Assembly: GCA_047947115.1 (NCBI GenBank) | Contig: CP170459.1 | Span: forward strand, 2,912,001 to 2,976,000 | Direction: 5' to 3' | Length of the DNA: 64,000 nt | Source: Verrucomicrobiota bacterium | GTDB lineage: Bacteria; Verrucomicrobiota; Verrucomicrobiia; Limisphaerales; AAA164-E04 | Shown: piece by piece, positions 37,246-50,386 of the stretch | Position numbering within the stretch: the first letter of the stretch is position 1 | Layout: each line of letters begins with the position of its first letter | The notes under the pieces: model-generated | The model's database searches: none | Told to the model about the DNA's origin: nothing | The model's input: only the letters and a program-made list of their open reading frames with translations | Program-made: the position numbers and the translations under genes

Positions 37246-37377
37246 ACCGTATTCAGCTGCTTGTCCGCAGTATTCCCATTTCAATTGTAAAAGGAATGCC
37301 TTTACTCCATGCTGCCGATGCGTATGGAGGTTTTGTTGTTCGATTTTTTTCGGAAGGATCGTCACACGGTTCTTTCC

Positions 37378-40300
37378 ATGAAACGCATCCGGTGCGGTTT
37401 ATTTCCGGTATGGGTCGCCTTCCTATGTTTGATACAATCCTCCGACCTGGCCGCACAGCCTGTTCCGAAAATTGTGGGCGGTCGTGAAACCGAATCGGAA
37501 TGGCCCTGGATGGCGGCTTTGATTCAAAGCCGCTTCGACGTTCCGGCTGACGGGGCGTTTTGTGGCGGTTCCCTGATTCACCCCCAATGGGTGTTGACCG
37601 CTGCGCACTGTGTGGGGAGGCAATTCGGTTTAGGGTTGCTTGATCCCGAGGACCTTCATGTGGTGGTTGGGAGTCATGATCTCGATAACCAGGGGCAGGG
37701 GATGCGGATACCGGTATTGGAGATCATCGTTCATCCCGATTACAATGGGGATGTTACCCGCACCGGGAATGATCTTGCCCTGCTGCTGCTGGCCTGGCCT
37801 GTGGACGATGCGCAGCCTGTCACCTTGTTGGATGACCCTGAAAAGCCGCTTGAGAACGTTCTGGCCACCTCAATAGGTTGGGGGGTTGTTTCCACTGAAC
37901 CCGGTGTTGAAAAACCCTCGAAATTGCGCGAGGCAAGTTATCCGATTGTTTCCAACGCATCAGCAAACGAAGCCCGGGCTTATGATGGCTCATTGAGGTC
38001 ATCCATGTTGCCGGCTGGTTATCCGAAAGGGCGTGTCAGTTCCTGTTATGGTGACAGCGGGGGGCCGCTGATGATTCAGGATCCCGGAACCGGTGAGTGG
38101 TTGCAGGTTGGGATTGTCAGTTTTGGTCATGACTGTGCAACACCTTTTTCGTATGGAATATATACGCGGGTGACATCTTTCGTTTCCTGGATTTATCAAC
38201 ACATTTATCCCTCCTTTGCCGCCTGGAGTGATCGCTACGGGGTGCGGGGATTGCCTGAGGATGCTGACCATGACGGGTGGAGCCATTTCCAGGAATTTGC
38301 CTTTGGCTCTGACCCTGTCAACGCCGATTCCATACCTCGAATCGCAGCTCAATGGGTGCCCTTGCCGGATGACTCGGGCGCTGAGTTGCTGTTGGGTATC
38401 AAGGCGCCTCTGCCCGGACGTTTCGTGGATTACCGTTTTTTGGAATCGGAAGATCTTGAATCATGGCATGCCGTTGAACCCATGAGCGTGCAAGGGGCAT
38501 TGTCAGAGAGAGGTTCTGGTGTGTTTGATCTTTCTGTTTCACTGGGGGGAGCTGGCTCCGGCAAGAGCAGTCGGTTTTATCAGGTGCAACCCGTGTTTGC
38601 CCAGGCTGCTCAGGCTTTTGCACTGGATCTTGCCTTGGGTTACTCGGTGAACGGCACCGTGTCCAATGCGTTTCGAGAGCCTGATTCCGTTGATCCGCTC
38701 TTGGCCGGAAGAATGGTCAGGCGTTATCGCTTGAAAAGCGAACCTGGTCGGACGACTTTCCGCCTCCGGGTTTCTTCGAAGGATTTCTTACCGGGACTGG
38801 ATGTTTACCATCCGATTACGAACCAGTTGCTGGTCACTCATCACCCGAGCGAGCCTGTGCAGGATGTGGTCTTGACCGTGGATGATTTGGGCGTCAGCGA
38901 CCTGATGGTTTCCGTAGTATCACTAGATGGACGAGAAGGAGGATTTGAATTGGTTTCCTGGTTGATGCCAGCCGAGCGGATTGAGCCAGGCCAAACCATT
39001 TCGAGCATGCTCGTTGAAAACGATCCGCTCACCAGCAATCCGTATGGAGATCATTTGCAGACAGATTCCTACCTGCTCTCCAATGTAGCGCCTGGTCAGG
39101 CTCTGGAAATTCATGCCACCAGCGTGCCAATAGACATTGCGCTGGTCATTCTGGATGCGGAGACGGGGAAAATCGTAGCCGAAGACGATGATTCGGGGGA
39201 GGGATTGAATGCCGCTCTTATTTTGGAAACTGAGAGCGAGGGACAGGCCTGGATCGTGCAAGTGACGACTTCAGGCTGGCATGATCTCGGGCTTTATGAG
39301 TTGGAGATATCACCCTATGACGGCGTTGCACTTCTGGATCGGACCAAGTTATCCGGGACACTGAGTCCGGGTGATCGGGTTGAGGGGGTGATTGATGCGG
39401 ATGATGAGCGGTTTCTGGACGATTTTGGTGAAATCCTCATTGCCGATGTTTACGATTTGACTGGTGTTGAAGGGGGGCAGTTACTGACCATCGAGTTGAG
39501 TTCAGATGATTTTGACGCTTATCTTCAGTTGGTGGACGCCTTCACTTCTCAAATTATCGAATACAATGACGACCATGGGTTGACGTCCCATTCCAGAATC
39601 GACTACCACGTGCCTCGCGGCGGATTGGAGGAGCCGGCGAGGATTATCGTGAGCGGATCTGACCAGGCTGATCGTGGTCATTACACACTGCGAGTGGAGC
39701 AGGCGGATGTGCCGACCCAGTTGACCGCTCCGACGACTCGTATTGCAATCGGAGAGGTGATTGAGGGAGAGCTTGATTATGGTGATAATACCCATTTCGA
39801 CGCCTATACAGGTATTCAGCCTGCGGATTATTATCTGTTGGAAGTGCCCAAGGAGGGAGTTGATGTGGAGATCCGTTTGCGATCTTCAGATTTTGATGCT
39901 CACCTTGCCTTGTTGGATGCCGAATTGGGTATTCATATCGCTGTAAATGACGATGGAGAGGATGGTGGTCCCAATGCCTTGATTGAGTATTCATTTGAGG
40001 CTTCGGAGGATGTTTATGATGTTTTGATCGAAGTCAGTTCCGTCTTTGCGGAAGATCTGGGTGATTACCAGTTGAGTGTTCAAAAGGGGGCAAAGCAAGC
40101 GCCAATAGATACTGAAAATGAGGTTCGGCTTTTGGAAATGCAGTCCAAAGTGGCGGGAGCGGTCATTTTGGGATCGGATCGATTGCCGGGCGGATTGCTG
40201 GGGCATCAGTATCGGGTGGAGATGACGCGATCGGTCACCCGGTGGTCTGTTGTGCTGGAAAGCTCCCAGTTTGACACGTGGTTGGGGCTGAGCGAGTCAC

Positions 40301-40860
40301 GTGATGGGCACTTCATTATTGAGAATGACTTTTATGAGGTCGGGACCGGGGCTTTTGATGTCGACCGGTCGCGACTGGATTTCTTTTCAGGACCCGAAAT
40401 CGATCCCTTGTTTCTCTGGGTGTCCTCGTTCTTCGAGGATGAGACAGGTGAATACGGGTTGTCCGTGGATGCCCATGTGCTGCCATTGATTCGAATAGGT
40501 AAGGAGATTGAAGGGAACTTGAGCACCGCGTCCATGAAAGATCCCTATTACCAGGTCTACGGTGGTGAGTTTTTTGCTGAGGATTATGCTCTGGACAGTG
40601 TGGCCGAGCCGAATCCTTTGAGAGTGACCATCACTAGTGAATCTTTTCTGCCCGAATGTTATCTGATGATTCCTCCGACTCAGGAAACGGTTGCATGGAG
40701 TTTGCCCGAGGGTTCGGAAGGGAATCAGGCTAGCTTTCTGTTTACGCCTCAAGAAGGCATGTCATATGTCCTTCGTGTTACCTCGGTTCAGGAAAATCAG
40801 ACTGGTGATTACAGGGTTTTAATCCAGGGTGACGGCGCTTCAAAAGGGCAGATTGAGTAA
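37378..40860 (+). CDS. secreted S1 (chymotrypsin/trypsin-clan) serine protease with about 6 PPC-like domains
   Basis: signal peptide, IVGG, FCGGSLI, LTAAHC, NDLALL, SCYGDSGGP, GIYTRV; then repeated S-x-D-F-D...N-D-D...G-x-Y-x-L domains. Confidence 0.9.
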   Translation: MKRIRCGLFPVWVAFLCLIQSSDLAAQPVPKIVGGRETESEWPWMAALIQSRFDVPADGAFCGGSLIHPQWVLTAAHCVGRQFGLGLLDPEDLHVVVGSHDLDNQGQGMRIPVLEIIVHPDYNGDVTRTGNDLALLLLAWPVDDAQPVTLLDDPEKPLENVLATSIGWGVVSTEPGVEKPSKLREASYPIVSNASANEARAYDGSLRSSMLPAGYPKGRVSSCYGDSGGPLMIQDPGTGEWLQVGIVSFGHDCATPFSYGIYTRVTSFVSWIYQHIYPSFAAWSDRYGVRGLPEDADHDGWSHFQEFAFGSDPVNADSIPRIAAQWVPLPDDSGAELLLGIKAPLPGRFVDYRFLESEDLESWHAVEPMSVQGALSERGSGVFDLSVSLGGAGSGKSSRFYQVQPVFAQAAQAFALDLALGYSVNGTVSNAFREPDSVDPLLAGRMVRRYRLKSEPGRTTFRLRVSSKDFLPGLDVYHPITNQLLVTHHPSEPVQDVVLTVDDLGVSDLMVSVVSLDGREGGFELVSWLMPAERIEPGQTISSMLVENDPLTSNPYGDHLQTDSYLLSNVAPGQALEIHATSVPIDIALVILDAETGKIVAEDDDSGEGLNAALILETESEGQAWIVQVTTSGWHDLGLYELEISPYDGVALLDRTKLSGTLSPGDRVEGVIDADDERFLDDFGEILIADVYDLTGVEGGQLLTIELSSDDFDAYLQLVDAFTSQIIEYNDDHGLTSHSRIDYHVPRGGLEEPARIIVSGSDQADRGHYTLRVEQADVPTQLTAPTTRIAIGEVIEGELDYGDNTHFDAYTGIQPADYYLLEVPKEGVDVEIRLRSSDFDAHLALLDAELGIHIAVNDDGEDGGPNALIEYSFEASEDVYDVLIEVSSVFAEDLGDYQLSVQKGAKQAPIDTENEVRLLEMQSKVAGAVILGSDRLPGGLLGHQYRVEMTRSVTRWSVVLESSQFDTWLGLSESRDGHFIIENDFYEVGTGAFDVDRSRLDFFSGPEIDPLFLWVSSFFEDETGEYGLSVDAHVLPLIRIGKEIEGNLSTASMKDPYYQVYGGEFFAEDYALDSVAEPNPLRVTITSESFLPECYLMIPPTQETVAWSLPEGSEGNQASFLFTPQEGMSYVLRVTSVQENQTGDYRVLIQGDGASKGQIE

Positions 40861-40987: not shown

Positions 40988-41063
40988 GGGCTGGTAGCTC
41001 AGTTGGTAGAGCAGCGGCCTTTTAAGCCGTTTGTCCAGGGTTCGAGTCCCTGCCAGCCTACCA
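40988..41063 (+). tRNA. tRNA-Lys(TTT)
   Basis: GGGCTGGTAGCTCAGTTGGTAGAGCAGCGGCCT-TTT-AAGCCG...GTTCGAGTCCCTGCCAGCCTACCA, 76 nt. Confidence 0.97.
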
Positions 41064-41398: not shown

Positions 41399-44300
41399 AT
41401 GAAAACCTATTCGCGCTTGGTGGCTTGTGTTCGTGCATCCTTTCGCTCCTGGTCGAGTTCTGTGGAGTGGATTTGTTTGGCGGTGTCTTCTTTGTTTGAA
41501 AGCTGTGTCGAGAATGTACGATATTTTTGTTCTCGTGTAACAGGGCTTGTCAGTGAAACTAATGCGTTGTGTTCCGGCTGGAAGCGTGTTTTGGGCAGGT
41601 TTGGCTGGAGTTTGGTGGCCGCACTCTTCATGGCTCCGATGCTGTTGTTGGGTGAGAGCGAACCTAATGATGTGCTCGGGGATTCGAATGTTCTGCCTCT
41701 TAACGGTCAAATGTCCGGACAGATCCAAAGCCCGGGGGAATATGACTGGTATCGAATCACTTGCCCTGATCCCGGGCGCCTGGAACTGAGATCCGTCAAT
41801 CCGCCGTCCAATCTGCGTGTTGAAATGGCAATGTTTGGCCGCCATGCTCAGTGGATCAGTGTTTACAGGTCTGCGGTCAATCCTGGGGATGATGTTTTTT
41901 TGTCTCTGGATATTGTCGAACCGGGGAGCTATTTCGTCCGATTCCGTGATATGAACAATGCAGTCTCTGAGGGCGATTATACCTTGTTCAATACTTTTAC
42001 TCCTGTTGTGGATCCGAATGAACCCAATGGTGACCTGGGGTATGCGACTCTCGTGGATTCTCGTTCCATGCGTGGGATGATCTTTTCGGGCAATGATTAT
42101 GATTTCTTTCGTCTGTATGTGGAGGAGAACTCGACGGTTGGGTTTACTTTGGAATCGCCGGATGCAATGAGGGGCGAACTGGCCCTCTATGATGAGCATT
42201 ATGGTTGGATGAGCGTTTACACTTCCGCGGTGAATGATGGGGATACGGTATTTCTGGAGCATCAGGTGAATCATTCCGCCTTTTACTACCTGCGTGTCCG
42301 GGACGTACACGGTCGTTCGCACTTGGATGCGTATTCGCTTTCCGTCAGCGGTGGTCGTGTCGGGTTTGTTCCAGCGGAATCCCCAGCCACAACAGAAAAG
42401 GAGAGCAATGACGATTCCGGCCATGCGAATCTCATCGGGATCCAGCAGACGGTTTCCGGGACAATCGGGGATGCGGGTGATATGGATTGGTTTGCTTTTG
42501 ATGTAACTGAACCCAATCAAATGACTTTGTCCATGGACACCTCGTCGGACGAGTTTCTATTGAGAGCCGAGTTCTTTAATCCTTCCAAAGGGCATCTGTT
42601 GACCGGACAGTCGGGGCATCCTGGTGATCCGTTTTCCATGACCTACGACTTTCTTCAGCCTGGCAGGTATCTTCTGCGAGTGAGAAGTTTGAACAACGCT
42701 TTTAATGACACACCCTACCGATTTTCTACGTCTGTGCTTCCTGTGGTTGATCCTTATGAGCCCAACGGCGACTACGGCGATGCGACACCTTTGAGTCAGA
42801 TCAACCAGGTGCAGGGCTTTCTGTTTCCTACAGGGGATCATGATTGGTTCCGGGTTCAAGTGGCAGAGCCGGGAACCTTGACGGCGATCGTCAGTGGTTT
42901 GCCTTCCAACATCACACCTTCCATTGATTTCTTCAATTTGTCCAAAGAACATCGAGCCGGCCGATCGGGAGCCGCCGGTGTGGATTTGCGTGTTTCCTAT
43001 GAAGTGGGAGAACCGGGCACATACCTGGTGCGCATGCGTGACAACGGGGACAATGATGAATCCACACAACCATATACCCTGACCCTGTTGGGCGCATCTT
43101 TTGAATCCTACGCTCCGGTGGCGCGGATTCAGTCTATTGATCCCGGCGCCATCGTCGTTGGAGATGAGATTTCCTTTGAGGGAGTCGGGAGTGATATTGA
43201 CGGATCGATATCGGGGTATGAATGGAGATCCAGCATTGACGGCGTATTGAGTGATCAAGCTACGTTCCGCACCGACAGTTTGTCCGTGGGTACCCATGAT
43301 ATATATTTCAGAGTGTTGGATAATCAAGGCATCTGGTCAACCCAGGTCGGAGAGCTGGTCTATGTTGGCAGCAGCATCTCCGAGGAAATTGAACCGAACG
43401 GCAGTTTCTTTGAAGCGAATGAATTTGCCTTGGAACGTCCTTTGACGGGCAAAGTGGAAGAACGAGGGGAAAATGATTTCTACAAGGTTTATGTGCCGGG
43501 CGCCGGACACCTGCGGGTAGAGTTGACGAATGTGCCGGTGGACCTGCGCATGGAGCTGGCCCTTTTCAACCGTTACTGGGATTGGGTCTCCGTTTCCAAC
43601 ATGGCAACCGAGGCCGGAGACGATGTGGGCGTGAGTATGGATATCACCGAGCCCGGATTGGTTTATGTCCGGTTGAGGGATGTTCAGAGTGTGACGAATG
43701 CTGATTTTACGTACACACTGGCAGCCTATTTCGAGGCCGCTCCCGACGTGTTTGAGCCCAATGGTTCTTTGTTGCAGGCACCGGTATTGCCGAGTGCTCA
43801 AGTGGAGGCCTACCTCTTTCCATCGGGCGACTATGACTGGTACCGAGTTTGGGTGGAACAGGGGCAGACGCTGGTGGCCGAAGTGAATGCGTTGCCGTCC
43901 AATGTGCGGGCGGAAGTGGCTTTATATGGTCGGAACCGCGAATGGCTCAGCCGTTACCAATCCTCAACCAATCCAGGAGACTCGGTGGTTCAGCAAATCG
44001 ATGTCACACAATCCGGTTTTTATTTCATACGCGTGCGTGCGATGGACGGGCGAAATTGGACCGATACCTATACGTTGAATGTTTCGGGTGGGATGCCGGG
44101 GTTTGTGCCGACGCTGATTCCTGTCCAGGAGGAAACAGAATCCAATAATGACATTGCAGACAGCAATTTTGTGTCCTTGGGCAATGTGGTTTCCGGCTCC
44201 ATGGAGCAACGGAACGATGAAGATTGGTTTGCATTTGATCTGCCAAGCCCGGGTTTGCTGGAGGTATCCGTGGATCAAATGCCAGCCGATATGCGTGGAC

Positions 44301-47300
44301 GCGTGCAGCTTTTTCAGGACGACAGGTCGCATGTGGCCACGCGGCAGGCCACCAATGCGGGGGATCCGCTCTTGATGGAGGTTCGAATGACAGTTCCGGG
44401 TCGTTATTACGTTCGAGTGGATCACGTGGGAGGCGATTTTTCAACGCCGCGTCCCTATGTTCTTGGGTTGTCATCCACTCCGATTGTTGACGTGTATGAA
44501 CCCAACCATGAGTTTCAGGATGCCACCCTGATCACCCAGCAGAACCGGGTGCAGGGATACATGTTTGATGTGGGGGATTTCGATTGGTATCGGGTTCGGA
44601 CGCAGGAGGGGAACACCTTGAGAATCACCGTGGGCGATGTGCCTTCCGAGATACGGCCGCAGATAGAATTGTTCGATTTTCATGAGGGGCACAAAGCGAC
44701 CAAACGCGCCACCAATGAAGGGCAGTCCATCACCTTGGAATATGTTGTTCCTGCGACGGGTGAGTATTCCATTCGCATTCGGGATGTGGGGGACAACAAT
44801 TTTTCAGCATCGCCTTACACGTTGTTGATTGATGGAGCCACCTTTGAATCCTATGTACCGATGGCGTTTATCGACGAGATGATTCCGAATCCCGCTGGGG
44901 AAGGGGAAATGGTTCAGTTTGTCGGGCATGGAGAAGATGCCGACGGATCGATCATTGGTTATGAATGGCGATCTTCGGTGGATGGTGTGTTCAGTATTTC
45001 TCAAAACGCCACATCGGAGGGGTTGAGCACGGGGGTGCATGAAATATTCTTCAAAGTCAAAGACAACCATCAAAACTGGTCCCCTGAGACTTCCGAAATT
45101 CTTTTCCTCGGTGTGCCGGCGCCTCAGGAAGAAGAACCCAATGACATCGCGGGTTCGGCGACCCTGATGGAGCTCGACCGTCAGTACAAAGGGCGCATTG
45201 ATCGAAATGGAGATTATGACTGGTATCGGATTCCTGTCACCGGGCCGGGAACCCTGGTGCTCCAACTGGTGAATCCCTCCGACGTCAAAATGCGCGCCGA
45301 ACTGGCCATGTACTCGCCGGATTTGGGCTGGGCCGGTGTGAGCACCACGGCGGACAATGAAGGGGACTCATTAACCCTTCGGTGGGATCTCAACGAGGCG
45401 GCAGATTATTTCCTGCGATTGAGAGATGTGCATAATCGTGTGGATGCCGAATACACACTTTCGGCCCATGTGGATTTGGTGCCGGACCCGTTCGAACCAA
45501 ACCACAACTTCACCACAGCTTCTCCGATCGGGACGGACGATGTCCTGGAAGCCTACATTTATCCGCGTGATGATCATGACTGGTACGAGGTGACCTTTGA
45601 GACACCAGGAACCTTTCATGCTTCGTTGACGTCCGTTCCGGAATCGATGCGAATCGAGATCGCCATGTATGGTCCGGATCTTAACTGGTTGAGTGTTTAT
45701 TCCAGCGGAGGAAACCCCGGTGACAATGTGTTTCGCGACTATGACGTGTCCCAGCCGGGAACCTACTTCCTGCGTGTGCGGGATACTGCTTCAACACGGA
45801 ACACTGAAGATACTTACACCTTGACCACTTCTTTCGAACCGGTAGTGGATGTGTTTGAGCCGAACCATGACTGGTGGCATGCTTCCCGGATAACCCAGAG
45901 TCCGGTTCAGGCTTATATCTTTCCCGGAGGAGACTATGATCATTACCGATTGTATGCGCCGGGTGGCGGTCCGTTGGATGTTTCCATTGAGCAGGCACCG
46001 AGTCATATGCGTATGGAACTGTCCCTTTATGACACGCATTACAATTGGATGTCTGTTTACAAAAGCGCGGCTGCTGAAGGCGATCCGGTGGCTTTGCATC
46101 TCGATGAAGCCAGCGGATATTATTATCTGAGAGTGCGCGAGGTCGATAATGACCGGTCGCCGGTTGAGCCTTATCAACTCAGTATTCAGGGGGCGGTTCT
46201 GGATCATGTCACTTCAACAGAACCCATGGAGACAGAAACAGAACCGAATGATCGATTCGCGTTCGCAACGGTCATTCAGATGGGGGAAGTCACCGGTCTT
46301 TACCAAGGCAATGAAGACTGGTTTCAATTCGAAGTCACGACACCGGGCGAGTTGGCGGTGGAATTGTTGTCCCCCGAAACCAACCGGGCACAATTGAATC
46401 TGTATGATCGAAATGCCCAGCATCTGATTGGCAGGGATTCTGAAAACAAAGGTGATCCGTCCAGATTGGTGTATCCCATTTCAAGGCCGGGTTGGTATGC
46501 GCTGCGCGTGTTGGACGCGGACGGCGCGACAAGCGATGAACCGTATCAACTCAGTGTGGTGCTCCATCCTGATCCGGATACACACGAACCCAATCCATCC
46601 TATTCGACCGCTGAACCCCTGGCGCTCAATGTGCCCGCAGTGGGGAATATTTTCCCAACCGGAGATCAGGACTGGTATCAATTCGAAACGACTGAAACCG
46701 GCACTGTCCAATTCACGGTGCTGAACGAATCGACCCATGTTCAAACATCCTTGTATGTCTACAATGAGGAACTTGTTCAATTGCTGAGGTATGATGCTTT
46801 GCACATTCAGCAACCCGTTGAGACGTCTCTTTGGCTCGAAACACCGGGTTTGTATTGGGTGAGAATTACGGATCGAGCGGATAATGCCTATTCGCTGCAG
46901 TCTTATACGTTGACGGCGCGGTTCGCCCCGGAAGTCGACGTGTTTGAGCCGAATGATCGTTTCAGGGATGCAACCGATATCGCTGAGATCAACCAGATCA
47001 AGGCGATCATTTATCCCGCCAACGATTGGGATTGGTATCGGTTTGATGTGGCGGAGGCCGGACGGATTCGTCTGCAGGTTTCACAGCCTGGTGGTATCCA
47101 GCCCGATATCCGGTTATATGACGACAGCGCTTCACAACTTGCTCGTGTGGCGGCGCGCAATACGGGCGAAACGGTCCTGTTGGTCTATGATATCTCCATA
47201 CCGGATACTTATTATGTAGCGGTCAGGGATGACGATGAAGCGCGCGTCAGTACAGAGCCTTATGTTCTTACTTTGGAAGGAGTTGCCACGCTTCACAGCG

Positions 47301-50300
47301 CACCCATGGCCGAGCCGCAGTTTGATCTCTCTCCCAACCCCGTCAGGGTGGGGCATCCCGTGACGTTATCTGGTGAAGGCAGCGCCATCGGGGGCTCCAT
47401 TGTGGATTACGAGTGGACATCCAATTTGGACGGTGTTCTTGGCCGGTCAGCTTCCCTGACGGTTCAGGAATTGCAGCAGGGGATTCACTCCATTGGATTG
47501 CGCGTTCGAGACAGTCAGGGCACATGGTCCGGGCGAGTGGATCAAAACCTGGTTGTCGCGTCCGATATATGGAGCGAATCGGAATACAACAATTCCTGGG
47601 AAACAGCGTACTCCATTCCATTGAACACTTGGGTGACAGGTCACATTGCGCCTCGTGGGGAGTATGATTTTTATCAAATCTACGTTGAACAATGTGGATT
47701 GGTGCGCATTTTGTTGGATGCGGTTCCATATAACCTGCGTCCTGAAATTGCCATGTTTGGTCCAAAGGGGGAATGGTTGGGGATCAGCTCATTACCACCT
47801 AATGCGGGTGAATGGGCGGATGTTGCCTGGTATGCGACCCCCGGTTATTACCACATCCGGATACGCGACGTGAACAATGCCACTCATGTGAACCCTTATG
47901 CACTCAAGGCCTTTTTCGATCCGGCCGGTGATCGGTTCGAGCCCAATGGATCATTCTCGCAGGCCACGCCGATAGGGGTGGATCAGATGGTGGAAAATCT
48001 GACGATTTGTCCAAGGGATGACCAGGATTGGTTTCGCATTGACGCGACTGAAGCCGGTCGATTGACCATGAAAGTCGTCGATCCACCGGAAGGGATGCGT
48101 TCCGAGATGGCGATGTACAATCGTGATTTTGGCTGGATGAGTGTTTATCACAGCGCGCTCAATGCCGGGGAACCGATAGATATGAGCTACGACATCACCG
48201 AACCCGGAACCTACTTTGTCCGGGTGCGGGATTTGAACAGCGGAGGGCATACCGAAAGTTATGCGTTTCAAACAGAATTCACCCCTGTGGTGGATCCGTA
48301 TGAGCCCAACGGTGGACACGGAGTCGCTACCTTGTTGAAGGCATCGACCGTTCAGGCTTATATTTTCCGTGGGGGGGATGAGGATTGGTATCGTGTCTAT
48401 GCTCAGGAAGGCTCGCTCATACGTTGTTCCGCTTCCGCCGTGCCTGAATCACAGAGGACGGAACTGGCCCTCTACGGTGTTGAACGGCAGTGGCTGAGTG
48501 TTTACAACCAGGCCAATCATTCCGGTGACACGGTTCACCTGAATTATACGGTTCCCAGAACAGGGTTCTACTATCTGCGTGTGCGGGATACCAATGGAGG
48601 ATCGCATTTGGCACCCTACACCTTGACGGTGGAAGGGGATTTGGAATATGGATTCGAGCCTGAGTTTGCACCGGTCATCACCGAAACGGAAGACAACAGC
48701 GAGTGGTCCACCTCCAATGACATCGCCTTGGATACGATGGTCTCTGGAGCTGTAGAATCGAATGGTGATGCCGACAGGTATCGGTTCTGGATCAATGCAC
48801 CCGGCATCCTGCAGATTGAACACACACAGGTGCAGGAAGCCATCACTTCGGAAATCTGGGTTTACAACCCTCATTTCAATCAGATTGCCTATCGAACCAC
48901 CACCAATCCGGGGGAGGACAACCTGCTGGAAGTGGCCCTGACCGAGCCAGGTTGGTATTATCTGCGCCTCGCAGATCGGGGCAATAACCACTCATCGCCC
49001 GATCCATATCAGTTGAGGCTGAACCATACACCGGTCGTGGACGAGCACGAATACAATGATGGTTTGGGAGCAGCGACGCCGCTGGGTGAGGCAACTATTC
49101 AGGGATACCTCTTCTCCGGAGACGACGTTGATTGGTATCGGGTTTACGTAAGAGAACCTTCCACCTTGTCAGTTTCTCTTGTTGAAGTTTCGGATGTGAA
49201 CCGGCCTCGGTTGCGGATCTATGATTCCGATGGGGGAGAGCGTGGGAACTGGGTGAATACCAACGCGGGTGTGACAGGAGAAAACGTGATTGTTTATGAA
49301 GCCGTCACACCCGGTTTCTATTACGTACGCGTGAATGACGAGGATCGACGTTACTCTGCCGATCCTTATTCCATTCGAATTGAAGGAGCCGATTTTTCAC
49401 GCGCACCTTCATTGGATGCCATTGGCGATCAAGTCATCGAAGCCATGATTCCTTATGCGCTTCGCGTTTCAGCCAAGGATCCAGATAATCCGGAAGCCTT
49501 GGTCTATTCAGCAACCAATCTGCCTCCAGGCGCTCGCTTTGATCCGGTAACCAGACTGTTGGAGTGGACCCCTTTGTTCAATCAAGCGGGAACCTATTCG
49601 GGTGTGACGTTCGAAGTGAGTGATGGTGATTTTTCCGATAGTGAAAGCATCACTCTCACAGTGGAAACACATAACCTGGCACCCGTGCTGGATCGGGTCG
49701 GCTACCGGAATATTCTGGTGGAATCGGAATTCAGATTGACCTTGTCGGCGATCGATCCGAACCCCGGAGACACACTTGCCTATTCCGCTGAAAACCTGCC
49801 GCGAGATGCGGTGTTTGACACAGACACGGCGACTTTTGTTTGGACGCCTTCCACAAATCAGTTGGGTGAACACGGCAATATTTTGTTTGTTGTGACCGAT
49901 GGTGTTCGATCCGATTTCGAGTATGTCACCCTGAATGTGGTGGAAGAACTCGAGCCGGAGGATCCTCGGGATGTGTGGTGGGCGACCCACTTCACCGAAT
50001 CCGAACTGTCTGATCCAAATGTGAGCGGGATGGATGCCGATCCAGACGGAGATGGCATGACAAACGGACAGGAACTGGAAGCGGATACGAATCCAAAAGA
50101 CCCTCATTCGTTGCTGCAGATTTTTGGATTTGCATCTGACGGTGAAAACCTCGAGATAAGCTGGCGGGGTGGTCGTGATTCCATTCAGTATCTGCAATTC
50201 CGAAGCAGATGGGATGCGGATTCCGAGTGGCAAACCATTCATACCTTTGAACCACCGACCGCCATTGAAAACAGTGCGACGGATGATCACTTGGAAGGGA

Positions 50301-50338
50301 TGGAGAGATACTATCGTATTCTGGCCGAAAGGCCGTAG
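41399..50338 (+). CDS. giant secreted/surface protein: about 19 PPC-like repeats, 3 PKD-like domains, 2 He_PIG/cadherin-like domains and a C-terminal PVC-type module
   Basis: 2979-aa ORF with repeats E/D-x-x-EPN...D-x-DWY...PG-x-Y-x-x-RV; DG-x-I-x-x-YEW-x-S PKD-like units; NLP-x-x-A-x-FD...W-T-P Ig units; DPDGDGMTNGQE. Confidence 0.88.
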   Translation: MKTYSRLVACVRASFRSWSSSVEWICLAVSSLFESCVENVRYFCSRVTGLVSETNALCSGWKRVLGRFGWSLVAALFMAPMLLLGESEPNDVLGDSNVLPLNGQMSGQIQSPGEYDWYRITCPDPGRLELRSVNPPSNLRVEMAMFGRHAQWISVYRSAVNPGDDVFLSLDIVEPGSYFVRFRDMNNAVSEGDYTLFNTFTPVVDPNEPNGDLGYATLVDSRSMRGMIFSGNDYDFFRLYVEENSTVGFTLESPDAMRGELALYDEHYGWMSVYTSAVNDGDTVFLEHQVNHSAFYYLRVRDVHGRSHLDAYSLSVSGGRVGFVPAESPATTEKESNDDSGHANLIGIQQTVSGTIGDAGDMDWFAFDVTEPNQMTLSMDTSSDEFLLRAEFFNPSKGHLLTGQSGHPGDPFSMTYDFLQPGRYLLRVRSLNNAFNDTPYRFSTSVLPVVDPYEPNGDYGDATPLSQINQVQGFLFPTGDHDWFRVQVAEPGTLTAIVSGLPSNITPSIDFFNLSKEHRAGRSGAAGVDLRVSYEVGEPGTYLVRMRDNGDNDESTQPYTLTLLGASFESYAPVARIQSIDPGAIVVGDEISFEGVGSDIDGSISGYEWRSSIDGVLSDQATFRTDSLSVGTHDIYFRVLDNQGIWSTQVGELVYVGSSISEEIEPNGSFFEANEFALERPLTGKVEERGENDFYKVYVPGAGHLRVELTNVPVDLRMELALFNRYWDWVSVSNMATEAGDDVGVSMDITEPGLVYVRLRDVQSVTNADFTYTLAAYFEAAPDVFEPNGSLLQAPVLPSAQVEAYLFPSGDYDWYRVWVEQGQTLVAEVNALPSNVRAEVALYGRNREWLSRYQSSTNPGDSVVQQIDVTQSGFYFIRVRAMDGRNWTDTYTLNVSGGMPGFVPTLIPVQEETESNNDIADSNFVSLGNVVSGSMEQRNDEDWFAFDLPSPGLLEVSVDQMPADMRGRVQLFQDDRSHVATRQATNAGDPLLMEVRMTVPGRYYVRVDHVGGDFSTPRPYVLGLSSTPIVDVYEPNHEFQDATLITQQNRVQGYMFDVGDFDWYRVRTQEGNTLRITVGDVPSEIRPQIELFDFHEGHKATKRATNEGQSITLEYVVPATGEYSIRIRDVGDNNFSASPYTLLIDGATFESYVPMAFIDEMIPNPAGEGEMVQFVGHGEDADGSIIGYEWRSSVDGVFSISQNATSEGLSTGVHEIFFKVKDNHQNWSPETSEILFLGVPAPQEEEPNDIAGSATLMELDRQYKGRIDRNGDYDWYRIPVTGPGTLVLQLVNPSDVKMRAELAMYSPDLGWAGVSTTADNEGDSLTLRWDLNEAADYFLRLRDVHNRVDAEYTLSAHVDLVPDPFEPNHNFTTASPIGTDDVLEAYIYPRDDHDWYEVTFETPGTFHASLTSVPESMRIEIAMYGPDLNWLSVYSSGGNPGDNVFRDYDVSQPGTYFLRVRDTASTRNTEDTYTLTTSFEPVVDVFEPNHDWWHASRITQSPVQAYIFPGGDYDHYRLYAPGGGPLDVSIEQAPSHMRMELSLYDTHYNWMSVYKSAAAEGDPVALHLDEASGYYYLRVREVDNDRSPVEPYQLSIQGAVLDHVTSTEPMETETEPNDRFAFATVIQMGEVTGLYQGNEDWFQFEVTTPGELAVELLSPETNRAQLNLYDRNAQHLIGRDSENKGDPSRLVYPISRPGWYALRVLDADGATSDEPYQLSVVLHPDPDTHEPNPSYSTAEPLALNVPAVGNIFPTGDQDWYQFETTETGTVQFTVLNESTHVQTSLYVYNEELVQLLRYDALHIQQPVETSLWLETPGLYWVRITDRADNAYSLQSYTLTARFAPEVDVFEPNDRFRDATDIAEINQIKAIIYPANDWDWYRFDVAEAGRIRLQVSQPGGIQPDIRLYDDSASQLARVAARNTGETVLLVYDISIPDTYYVAVRDDDEARVSTEPYVLTLEGVATLHSAPMAEPQFDLSPNPVRVGHPVTLSGEGSAIGGSIVDYEWTSNLDGVLGRSASLTVQELQQGIHSIGLRVRDSQGTWSGRVDQNLVVASDIWSESEYNNSWETAYSIPLNTWVTGHIAPRGEYDFYQIYVEQCGLVRILLDAVPYNLRPEIAMFGPKGEWLGISSLPPNAGEWADVAWYATPGYYHIRIRDVNNATHVNPYALKAFFDPAGDRFEPNGSFSQATPIGVDQMVENLTICPRDDQDWFRIDATEAGRLTMKVVDPPEGMRSEMAMYNRDFGWMSVYHSALNAGEPIDMSYDITEPGTYFVRVRDLNSGGHTESYAFQTEFTPVVDPYEPNGGHGVATLLKASTVQAYIFRGGDEDWYRVYAQEGSLIRCSASAVPESQRTELALYGVERQWLSVYNQANHSGDTVHLNYTVPRTGFYYLRVRDTNGGSHLAPYTLTVEGDLEYGFEPEFAPVITETEDNSEWSTSNDIALDTMVSGAVESNGDADRYRFWINAPGILQIEHTQVQEAITSEIWVYNPHFNQIAYRTTTNPGEDNLLEVALTEPGWYYLRLADRGNNHSSPDPYQLRLNHTPVVDEHEYNDGLGAATPLGEATIQGYLFSGDDVDWYRVYVREPSTLSVSLVEVSDVNRPRLRIYDSDGGERGNWVNTNAGVTGENVIVYEAVTPGFYYVRVNDEDRRYSADPYSIRIEGADFSRAPSLDAIGDQVIEAMIPYALRVSAKDPDNPEALVYSATNLPPGARFDPVTRLLEWTPLFNQAGTYSGVTFEVSDGDFSDSESITLTVETHNLAPVLDRVGYRNILVESEFRLTLSAIDPNPGDTLAYSAENLPRDAVFDTDTATFVWTPSTNQLGEHGNILFVVTDGVRSDFEYVTLNVVEELEPEDPRDVWWATHFTESELSDPNVSGMDADPDGDGMTNGQELEADTNPKDPHSLLQIFGFASDGENLEISWRGGRDSIQYLQFRSRWDADSEWQTIHTFEPPTAIENSATDDHLEGMERYYRILAERP

Positions 50339-50353
50339 TTGAACCAAAGCCAC

Positions 50354-50386
50354 AAGGCCCGGGATTATTTCCCGGGCCTTTACTTT
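50354..50386 (+). terminator. hairpin terminator between convergent genes
   Basis: AAGGCCCGGGA-TTATT-TCCCGGGCCTT followed by TACTTT. Confidence 0.75.

What the first reader, a model, noticed from the sequence alone, without database searches (positions are those of the whole stretch)
41399..50338. 2979-aa secreted protein built from about 19 PPC-like repeats with no visible catalytic domain
Seen: by eye the architecture is [4 PPC + PKD]-[4 PPC + PKD]-[6 PPC + PKD]-[5 PPC]-2 Ig-like-C-terminal module. Two repeat types (E-x-E-[PS]-N and D-x-x-EPN) recur in an ordered pattern, which points to cassette-level duplication. I found no HExxH, GDSGG or subtilisin motif. Known: PPC and PKD domains normally occur as 1-3 accessory substrate-binding modules on M9/M4/S8 proteases. 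Inference: this is a multivalent, probably Ca2+-rigidified adhesin or scaffold that captures protein substrates, rather than an enzyme.
Basis: partly seen in the sequence, partly recalled or inferred. Interest (0 to 1): 0.72.

Follow-up and report, generated by a model that had tools for sequence, protein, structure and literature searches.

The report
Ten-site binder retuned in lockstep
This gene encodes a 2,979-residue protein of 19 collagen-binding-type domains in an order that is frozen across relatives from at least two bacterial phyla, and ten of these domains change the same residue together from species to species, so it is likely an exported, calcium-stiffened adhesin whose ten sites would all grip one variable target that is probably not collagen.

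Summary
The ORF is real (41399-50338, 2,979 aa). It has 19 PPC/CBD repeats ordered 4-PKD-4-PKD-6-PKD-5, two cadherin-like domains and a generic C-terminal module. Pfam, NCBIfam, motif scans and two AlphaFold models show no catalytic domain. New here: it founds an unnamed, rare family. All 39 complete members examined keep the same 19-repeat order (37-87% identity to this protein where measured), and only the C-terminal tail is swapped between lineages. The fold matches clostridial collagen-binding domains (Z 17.6). Positions matching the calcium ligands are 96-99% kept, but the collagen-binding tyrosines are not. Ten of the 19 repeats share one residue within a protein at a site mapping to the CBD ligand face (364 of 378 cells). 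That residue (S, G, N, Y or W) switches at least 12 times on a 36-protein tree, in nearly all ten repeats at once. Adjacent residues and synonymous codons are not homogenised, which points to parallel selection, not gene conversion. Best reading: a ten-valent surface adhesin for one repeated, fast-changing ligand (0.6). The ligand is unknown.

The parts
41399..50338 (+). Gene for the 2979-aa protein P0001
   Evidence: full-length homologues
41399..41653 (+). 85-aa leader with basic residues and one hydrophobic stretch; inferred (extended) signal peptide. A later TTG start cannot be excluded.
41648..42358 (+). W-type repeats R1, R2 (switch residues S154, S272)
42389..43096 (+). Non-switching repeats R3, R4
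43115..43369 (+). PKD-like domain 1
43379..44092 (+). W-type repeats R5, R6 (S731, S851)
44126..44836 (+). Non-switching repeats R7, R8
44855..45115 (+). PKD-like domain 2
45122..46195 (+). W-type repeats R9, R10, R11 (G1313, S1432, S1552)
46229..47284 (+). Non-switching repeats R12, R13, R14
47300..47560 (+). PKD-like domain 3
47570..48640 (+). W-type repeats R15, R16, R17 (G2128, S2248, S2367)
48677..49387 (+). Non-switching repeats R18, R19, with position-specific conserved face residues
49397..49957 (+). Two He_PIG / cadherin-like Ig domains
   Evidence: SraP 4m00 Z 12.7, rmsd 5.6, 172 aligned
49958..50335 (+). Swappable C-terminal module (DxDGDG loop plus beta domain) shared with about 10 other proteins of this genome, mostly at their C-termini; inferred export or anchor signal
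50353..50381 (.). GC-rich hairpin between the gene and the convergent sulfatase; likely terminator
   Evidence: z -4.5, 0 of 200 shuffles as stable

Best explanation
The protein is likely an exported, surface-tethered, calcium-stiffened adhesin in which ten of the 19 CBD-type domains would all bind copies of one repeated external ligand, most likely a surface polymer such as a glycan that differs between lineages. SHOWN: frozen 19-repeat order; kept calcium-linker residues; loss of the collagen tyrosines; lock-step change of one set of alternating strand positions in exactly ten repeats; a swappable tail. INFERRED: export through the N-terminal leader and tethering through the tail. Calcium locks each linker, as described for ColG. 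The nine other repeats and three PKD domains form a frame of fixed geometry (four cassettes, each with 2-3 binding domains). Binding is by avidity, so when the target changes each of the ten sites gains independently from the same substitution and the array is retuned by parallel point mutation. A glycan-like ligand is inferred only from the W/Y-plus-Arg chemistry of the face.
For: Order identical in 33 of 33 complete proteins (two lack one Ig), in the loci, and in 3 of 3 new full-length proteins; shorter hits with high scores are fragments of the same order. Each repeat position is one clade across 10 proteins (18 changes, the minimum; nearest neighbour at the same position in 189 of 190). 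Fold: ColH CBD Z 17.6, rmsd 1.7 A over 115 residues; pLDDT 88.7 and pTM 0.75 / 0.70 for models of 10 and 8 domains. Calcium-linker positions E 99%, N 99%, D 99%, D/E 96% of 627 cells. Switch column: same residue within a protein 0.94, between proteins 0.23; W/Y column 0.94 vs 0.47; median column difference 0.014; maximum 0.09 and 0.07 in the two control groups of non-W repeats. Majority residue in 364 of 378 cells, 38 of 39 proteins at 80% or more, five states; adjacent columns 1 of 39 and 4 of 39. 12 switches on a 36-protein tree built without the face columns, 11-13 in each repeat. P0024/P0027 (76.6% identical) differ N/G in 9 of 9 repeats, while no other of 118 columns shares a substitution in more than 3. 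Switching columns are alternate positions on predicted strands and align with ColG T955, T957, the Y970 strand, Y994 and Y996. No DNA homogenisation. No single cis position outside the switch column tracks the state above 0.59.
Against: No ligand was identified and no binding was tested. The glycan idea rests on residue chemistry; the nearest solved relatives bind a protein. Concordance is imperfect: the window protein has 8 S and 2 G, and fragment P0113 has a decayed, mixed signature. Synonymous identity at the switch codon is slightly above expectation (0.53 vs 0.46; flanks 0.50 vs 0.45; rest 0.45 vs 0.43), so very old short conversion tracts are not strictly excluded. Export and anchoring are inferred. 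Transcription is not proven. Residues 1241-2054 were not folded.
Confidence: 0.6

Rival explanations
1. Homophilic self-recognition: W faces bind W faces of the same protein on neighbouring cells, so all ten must match, and the signature is a kin code.
For: A residue on a symmetry axis needs no complementary partner site, which fits the lack of a co-varying cis position. The C-terminal pair is cadherin-like. One member is from Ca. Magnetomorum, a multicellular magnetotactic bacterium (P0034), in a group where the basis of cell-cell adhesion is described as not entirely known (PMC11239054, passages).
Against: Only about eight signature classes recur in distant lineages (WG and WN arise in both main clades), which is few for a kin code. 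There is no excess of face changes between near relatives (13 of 80 vs 323 of 2596 for P0003). Stepwise change would break self-binding in intermediates. The family is rare and patchy (4 of 301 genomes).
Confidence: 0.15
2. Scaffoldin-like hub: the ten W domains are cohesin-like receptors for a dockerin-like tail carried by many exported proteins of the same cell.
For: Ten equal sites on a fixed frame with lineage-specific residues resemble cohesin arrays (own knowledge). The second clade ends in Pfam Dockerin_1 (5 of 8 proteins scanned). This genome has 11 proteins with the tail module.
Against: The tail occurs 3-11 times in genomes where the giant was not found (G001 11, G006 7, G011 3). Tail type and signature do not track: P0014 is YW with the first tail type, L087 is WN inside the second clade, and P0024/P0027 differ in signature with similar tails. 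Tail positions score at most 0.27 for co-variation.
Confidence: 0.1
3. Substrate-capture accessory for a separate protease, binding collagen or similar proteins as clostridial CBDs do.
For: The closest solved folds are collagenase CBDs. An S1 protease with PPC domains and an intact GDSGG lies upstream on the same strand.
Against: The Y994 and Y996 positions are not kept. A tRNA-Lys gene separates the two genes. The protease is full-length in G001 and G006, where the giant was not found, and was not found with this query in G124 and G302, which have it. No neighbour is shared beyond close relatives across 15 loci.
Confidence: 0.07
4. The lock-step residues come from a DNA process (short gene conversion among repeats, or a diversity-generating retroelement), not from parallel selection.
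For: Simultaneous change in 9-10 places between proteins 77% identical is hard to get by point mutation unless selection is strong. There is a small excess of synonymous identity. No reverse transcriptase search of the genome was run.
Against: Exact DNA runs through the switch codon have a median of 3 nt (mean 3.9, n 522), shorter than at invariant structural codons (mean 5.5). Both AGY and TCY Ser codons are used within one gene. The residues on either side stay position-specific while the middle one switches. The changing columns lie on three separate strands. Repeats group by position, not by protein.
Confidence: 0.05
5. A cryptic enzyme formed by conserved residues in or between the beta domains.
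For: Invariant His and Ser occur in the three PKD-like domains (H633, H1214, H2030).
Against: This PKD subtype is widespread in otherwise unrelated archaeal and bacterial proteins (61 of 71 loci match mainly that part). Both models are beta-sandwich arrays with no catalytic fold among the top matches.
Confidence: 0.03

Closest known systems
Clostridial collagenase collagen-binding domains (ColG s3a/s3b, ColH s3; PDB 1nqd, 5iku, 3jqw), a subclass of PPC (PF04151)
   Same: Same fold (Z 16.4-17.6), same N-terminal E-x-E-x-N linker and D-x-D acidic positions, same association with PKD-like domains, and the variable residues map to the same face.
   Different: 19 copies instead of 1-2, no M9 peptidase, Y994/Y996 not kept, 11 of 19 repeats have Asp at -3 in place of Glu at -2, and the tandem geometry differs from s3a-s3b (rmsd 15 A over 226 residues).
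Giant calcium-dependent repeat adhesins (RTX adhesins such as LapA or MpIBP; SraP) - comparison from own knowledge, except the SraP fold match
   Same: Exported, non-catalytic, beta-sandwich arrays; cadherin-like pair near the C-terminus (SraP 4m00).
   Different: Those use variable numbers of near-identical stalk repeats and one or a few tip domains. Here the number and order are fixed, the repeats are about 30% identical, and the putative binding sites are spread over ten domains. No RTX/T1SS or LPXTG family hit.
Cellulosomal scaffoldins (cohesin arrays) - own knowledge
   Same: Non-catalytic frame with many sites of equal, lineage-specific specificity; a dockerin-like tail in one clade.
   Different: No cohesin domain by Pfam; no co-varying dockerin found; the repeats are CBD-fold.

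Membership tests
PPC / clostridial CBD-type domain | PPC profile match and CBD fold | tested here: met
   Pfam PF04151 280 bits; Z 17.6, rmsd 1.7 A to 3jqw
PPC / clostridial CBD-type domain | Calcium-binding N-terminal linker residues (ligand list E899/E901/N903/D904/D927/D930 is recalled; the calcium-triggered linker change is in PMC4356367 passages) | tested here: met
   E, N and D positions 99%, first D of D-x-D 89% D plus 7% E; D904 position 63% N/D; first acid is E at -2 (8 repeats) or D at -3 (11 repeats). Sequence only; calcium binding itself was not measured.
Collagen-binding domain in the strict sense | Hot-spot Tyr970, Tyr994, Tyr996 (PMC4356367 passage) | tested here: not met
   Y994 position 9% Tyr, Y996 position variable with Tyr not among the six commonest residues, Y970 position 38% Tyr in one register (shifts it by two)
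Collagen-binding domain in the strict sense | Measured binding to triple-helical collagen | not testable with these tools
   needs a binding assay
M9 / M4 / S8 / S1 proteases with PPC and PKD accessories | Catalytic domain with HExxH or Ser-His-Asp motifs | tested here: not met
   the whole length is tiled by repeats, PKD, Ig and tail
RTX / T1SS giant adhesin | RTX nonapeptide repeats, T1SS signal and adjacent secretion genes | tested here: not met
   no such family; none among the neighbours listed; an N-terminal leader is present instead
Scaffoldin | Cohesin domains | tested here: not met
   no cohesin family in Pfam scans of 9 members
Scaffoldin | Binding of dockerin-bearing clients | not tested
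Diversity-generating retroelement target | Variable repeats near-identical in DNA except at adenines | tested here: not met
   median exact run 3 nt among W repeats

The most novel reading that the evidence does not exclude
A new class of bacterial recognition protein: a rigid, ten-valent receptor of fixed geometry, passed between phyla with only its anchor swapped. Its ten sites carry a one- to three-residue specificity code that is rewritten in all ten at once, and it serves to recognise self or a partner cell (homophilic, or through a cell-surface polymer).
Probability: 0.25. Interest if true: 0.85.

Novelty: new variant of a known kind. Interest (0 to 1): 0.68.

Why it matters
PPC domains are usually annotated as protease accessories, and one member of this family is deposited as 'Peptidase domain protein' although no peptidase is present. 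This family shows the collagen-binding-domain fold redeployed as a stand-alone multivalent array. It also offers a clean natural experiment: ten long-diverged paralogous domains in one chain make the same substitution in parallel, at least 12 times. The switch residue is pinpointed and sister pairs exist (N against G at 77% identity), so the ligand and the specificity code can be tested directly with single recombinant domains. Such domains could also be a tunable, calcium-stabilised binding scaffold.

Tried and rejected
Self-BLAST of the whole protein returned no off-diagonal rows and was replaced by slicing into units. Complex prediction for an R1-R2 homodimer was not available, so homophilic binding is untested. 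ESM Atlas gave no answer. Island or recent transfer: no duplicate of the tRNA-Lys 3' end at 14 nt or more, and gene GC 0.522 against genome 0.511 with GC3 like its neighbours; no plasmid match. Conserved partner gene: across 15 loci only the convergent sulfatase is shared, and only with close relatives; a Planctomycete-cytochrome-type gene recurs at varying positions. Promoter scan: 1 site against 1.0 expected. Expression: 6 metatranscriptome runs hold 22-75% of the words, but the three laid are contigs that also cover the neighbours, so transcription is not shown. Literature: ten full-text searches listed no paper on this family or on lock-step switching; (PPC domain + Verrucomicrobia + repeats + secreted) found 0. 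The library lacks most subscription papers; the primary CBD papers (Wilson 2003, Bauer 2013, Philominathan 2009 and 2012, Yeats 2003) were not held, and supplements were not read. Earlier scan findings by sequence and place: none. Rows left out of counts: P0002 (99% identical), in some calls also P0003, and partial proteins.
Full report
Observation. The ORF at 41399-50338 encodes 2979 aa. Motif and HMM scans give 19 repeats of about 120 aa in the order 4-PKD-4-PKD-6-PKD-5, then two He_PIG domains and a 126-aa tail. No catalytic family or motif is found. The gene stands alone: a tRNA-Lys gene lies upstream, and a strong hairpin and a convergent sulfatase lie downstream. The only hydrophobic segment is in the 85-aa leader. 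Most homologues outside this genus have 30-45-aa leaders before the first repeat, so export is inferred. The closest named relatives are titled Verrucomicrobiota. Near-identical DNA occurs in estuary, seawater and marsh metagenomes (20 of 24 listed runs, 16 studies).

Fold. The best sequence matches in the PDB are clostridial collagenase collagen-binding domains. AlphaFold models of residues 85-1240 and 2055-2979 have pLDDT 88.7 and pTM 0.75 and 0.70. I read these pTM values as a sign of defined inter-domain packing, which is an inference. Both models match ColH s3 best (Z 17.6 and 17.3, rmsd 1.7-1.8 A), and the C-terminal Ig pair is cadherin-like. Residues 1241-2054 were not folded but are tiled by six repeats and one PKD domain. 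The positions matching the CBD calcium linker are almost invariant over about 627 repeat instances. The ligand list is recalled; the calcium-triggered linker change and the Tyr970/994/996 hot spot are from passages of PMC4356367. The tyrosines are not kept (Y994 position 9% Tyr). PMC6168687 (passages) shows that a PPC domain only 11-23% identical to these CBDs can still bind collagen, so collagen binding by another mode is not excluded.

A frozen family. A search of proteins of 1638-5214 aa returned 35 homologues over most of the length, at 37-99% identity. All 33 complete proteins, the query included, have the same 19-repeat order; the three partial ones are consistent with it. The order recurs in genome and metagenome loci (L020 is split by a frameshift) and in 3 of 3 new full-length proteins from an HMMER scan of 1.84 billion representatives. 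High-scoring shorter hits are fragments, and related repeats in other layouts score much lower per position. Named carriers include Verrucomicrobiota, Syntrophales, a deltaproteobacterium, Ca. Magnetomorum and a partial Pirellulales locus. It is rare: 2 of 41 relatives carry it, 4 of 301 genomes of the order and 1 of 401 in the phylum of G315, which was the seed genome. After the Ig domains the tail is swapped: one clade has the module seen here, the other has FN3/Hydin-Ig plus a dockerin-like end. The local module occurs on 3-11 proteins per genome whether or not the giant was found, so I read it as a generic export or anchor tag. In a tree of 190 repeats from 10 proteins each position is one clade. 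The four cassettes therefore duplicated before these lineages split and have neither been shuffled nor homogenised.

Lock-step switching. For every repeat column I compared identity between different repeats of one protein with identity between different repeats of different proteins. In ten repeats (R1, 2, 5, 6, 9, 10, 11, 15, 16, 17) a small set of columns stands out: 0.94 vs 0.23 at the column of S1432, 0.94 vs 0.47 at W1430, and differences of about 0.3 at E1420, A1422, Y1434 and R1461. The median difference is 0.014, and the maximum in the other nine repeats is 0.09. The ten were picked by eye from the W-x-S motif of the window protein before this test. Over 39 complete proteins the majority residue fills 364 of 378 cells, with five states (S 10, Y 13, G 9, N 3, W 4); the adjacent columns reach 80% agreement in only 1 and 4 of 39 proteins. 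On a tree of 36 proteins built without these columns the state changes at least 12 times, and each repeat changes 11-13 times (FastTree). Seven close pairs of different state differ identically in 7-10 repeats, for example P0024/P0027 N/G in 9 of 9 at 76.6% identity and P0001/P0005 S/Y in 8 of 10. Six same-state control pairs have no column above 6. Proteins found later behave the same (P0110 YW 10 of 10, P0112 YY 10 of 10, P0111 mostly G), except the decayed fragment P0113. The columns are alternate positions on three predicted strands and align with ColG 955, 957, the 970 strand, 994 and 996. That these form one ligand face is recalled, apart from the three tyrosines.

Cause. In 12 genes, synonymous identity among the ten repeats is 0.53 at the switch codon (expected 0.46), 0.50 at its flanks (0.45) and 0.45 elsewhere (0.43). 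Exact DNA runs through the codon have a median of 3 nt, and Ser uses both AGY and TCY within one gene. The immediate neighbours keep position-specific residues. Recent conversion or retroelement copying is therefore rejected, and parallel selection is inferred. No other position in the chain, the tail included, tracks the state above 0.59, so the partner is not one complementary site in cis. No partner gene is conserved beside it, and the upstream trypsin-PPC gene does not co-occur with it in the five genomes checked.

Mechanism. The simplest reading is that the ten domains bind copies of the same thing. With avidity each site gains independently from the same change, which gives a smooth path to lock-step retuning. 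A face of W/Y with conserved Arg (R1418 column 71-94% in W repeats) suggests a glycan or another anionic polymer, but that is inference. The other nine repeats do not switch, and some keep position-specific face residues (R18 E97%, W87%, Y84%; R19 R94%, N97%), as expected of frame contacts or a second, fixed ligand. Rivals are homophilic recognition (0.15), a scaffoldin-like hub (0.10), a protease accessory (0.07), a DNA-level process (0.05) and a cryptic enzyme (0.03).

Literature seen. Passages: PMC4356367, PMC6168687, PMC5889866, PMC11239054, PMC13284217, PMC7893005. Others were seen as search listings only. Ten searches listed nothing on this family; the library lacks most subscription papers, and supplements were not read.

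Verdict. Real; a member of the PPC/CBD fold class, but not a collagenase, not a strict collagen-binding domain, and not an RTX adhesin or scaffoldin by the features tested. It is a new variant of a known kind (non-catalytic multivalent surface binder), with two unusual, measured properties: frozen architecture and parallel retuning of ten sites. Interest 0.68.

Noticed in passing
window 37309-40860 (+): 1183-aa S1 (trypsin) protease with intact GDSGG, an internal DxDxDG module like the tail of the giant, and several PPC-like domains. Full-length orthologues are in G001 and G006; G007 has a shorter form elsewhere.
   Followed up: partly
window 40988-41063 (+): tRNA-Lys(TTT) directly upstream, followed by an AT-rich stretch (GC 0.38); no att-like duplicate in the genome, and no tRNA beside the G007 orthologue.
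   Followed up: yes
window 41399-41653: An 85-87-aa leader is kept in length, but not in sequence, in six related proteins (P0001-P0006); 12 of the 56 differences between P0001 and P0002 fall in it.
   Followed up: partly
window 43115-43369, 44855-45115, 47300-47560: This PKD subtype (W-x-S-x-x-D-G ... G-x-H) is widespread in Thermoplasmatota, Bathyarchaeia, Nitrospirota, Omnitrophota and Chloroflexota proteins that lack the repeat array.
   Followed up: no
G000 C1, e.g. 4451327-4457797, 3771241-3779994, 1574534-1582135: About ten other proteins, several over 2000 aa and apparently exported, carry the same DxDGDG-beta module, mostly at the C-terminus. No Pfam or NCBIfam model covers it above cut-off; it may be an unnamed verrucomicrobial export or anchor signal.
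   Followed up: partly
L018 2511-24844 and L087, L092: In the second clade the gene lies among other large exported proteins, some ending in the same dockerin-like tail; no cohesin partner was looked for.
   Followed up: no
L020 9875-21366: A family member split by a frameshift in repeat 9; its near-identical relative L089 is intact (3815 aa), so it may be an assembly error.
   Followed up: partly
P0058, P0036, P0063 (fragments): Further signature classes, in which the W/Y position becomes N or D in several repeats together (N-x-Y, D-x-Y).
   Followed up: partly
alignment column 32 and column 66 of W-type repeats: Some pairs share substitutions outside the main face (P0004/P0006 R/G in 6 of 10 at column 32; P0012/P0013 Y/F in 8 of 10 at column 66), which suggests a larger co-adapting surface.
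   Followed up: no
G000 C1 2098577-2121958 and 3167330-3187666: Open frames of 7794 and 6779 codons, the longest in this genome.
   Followed up: no
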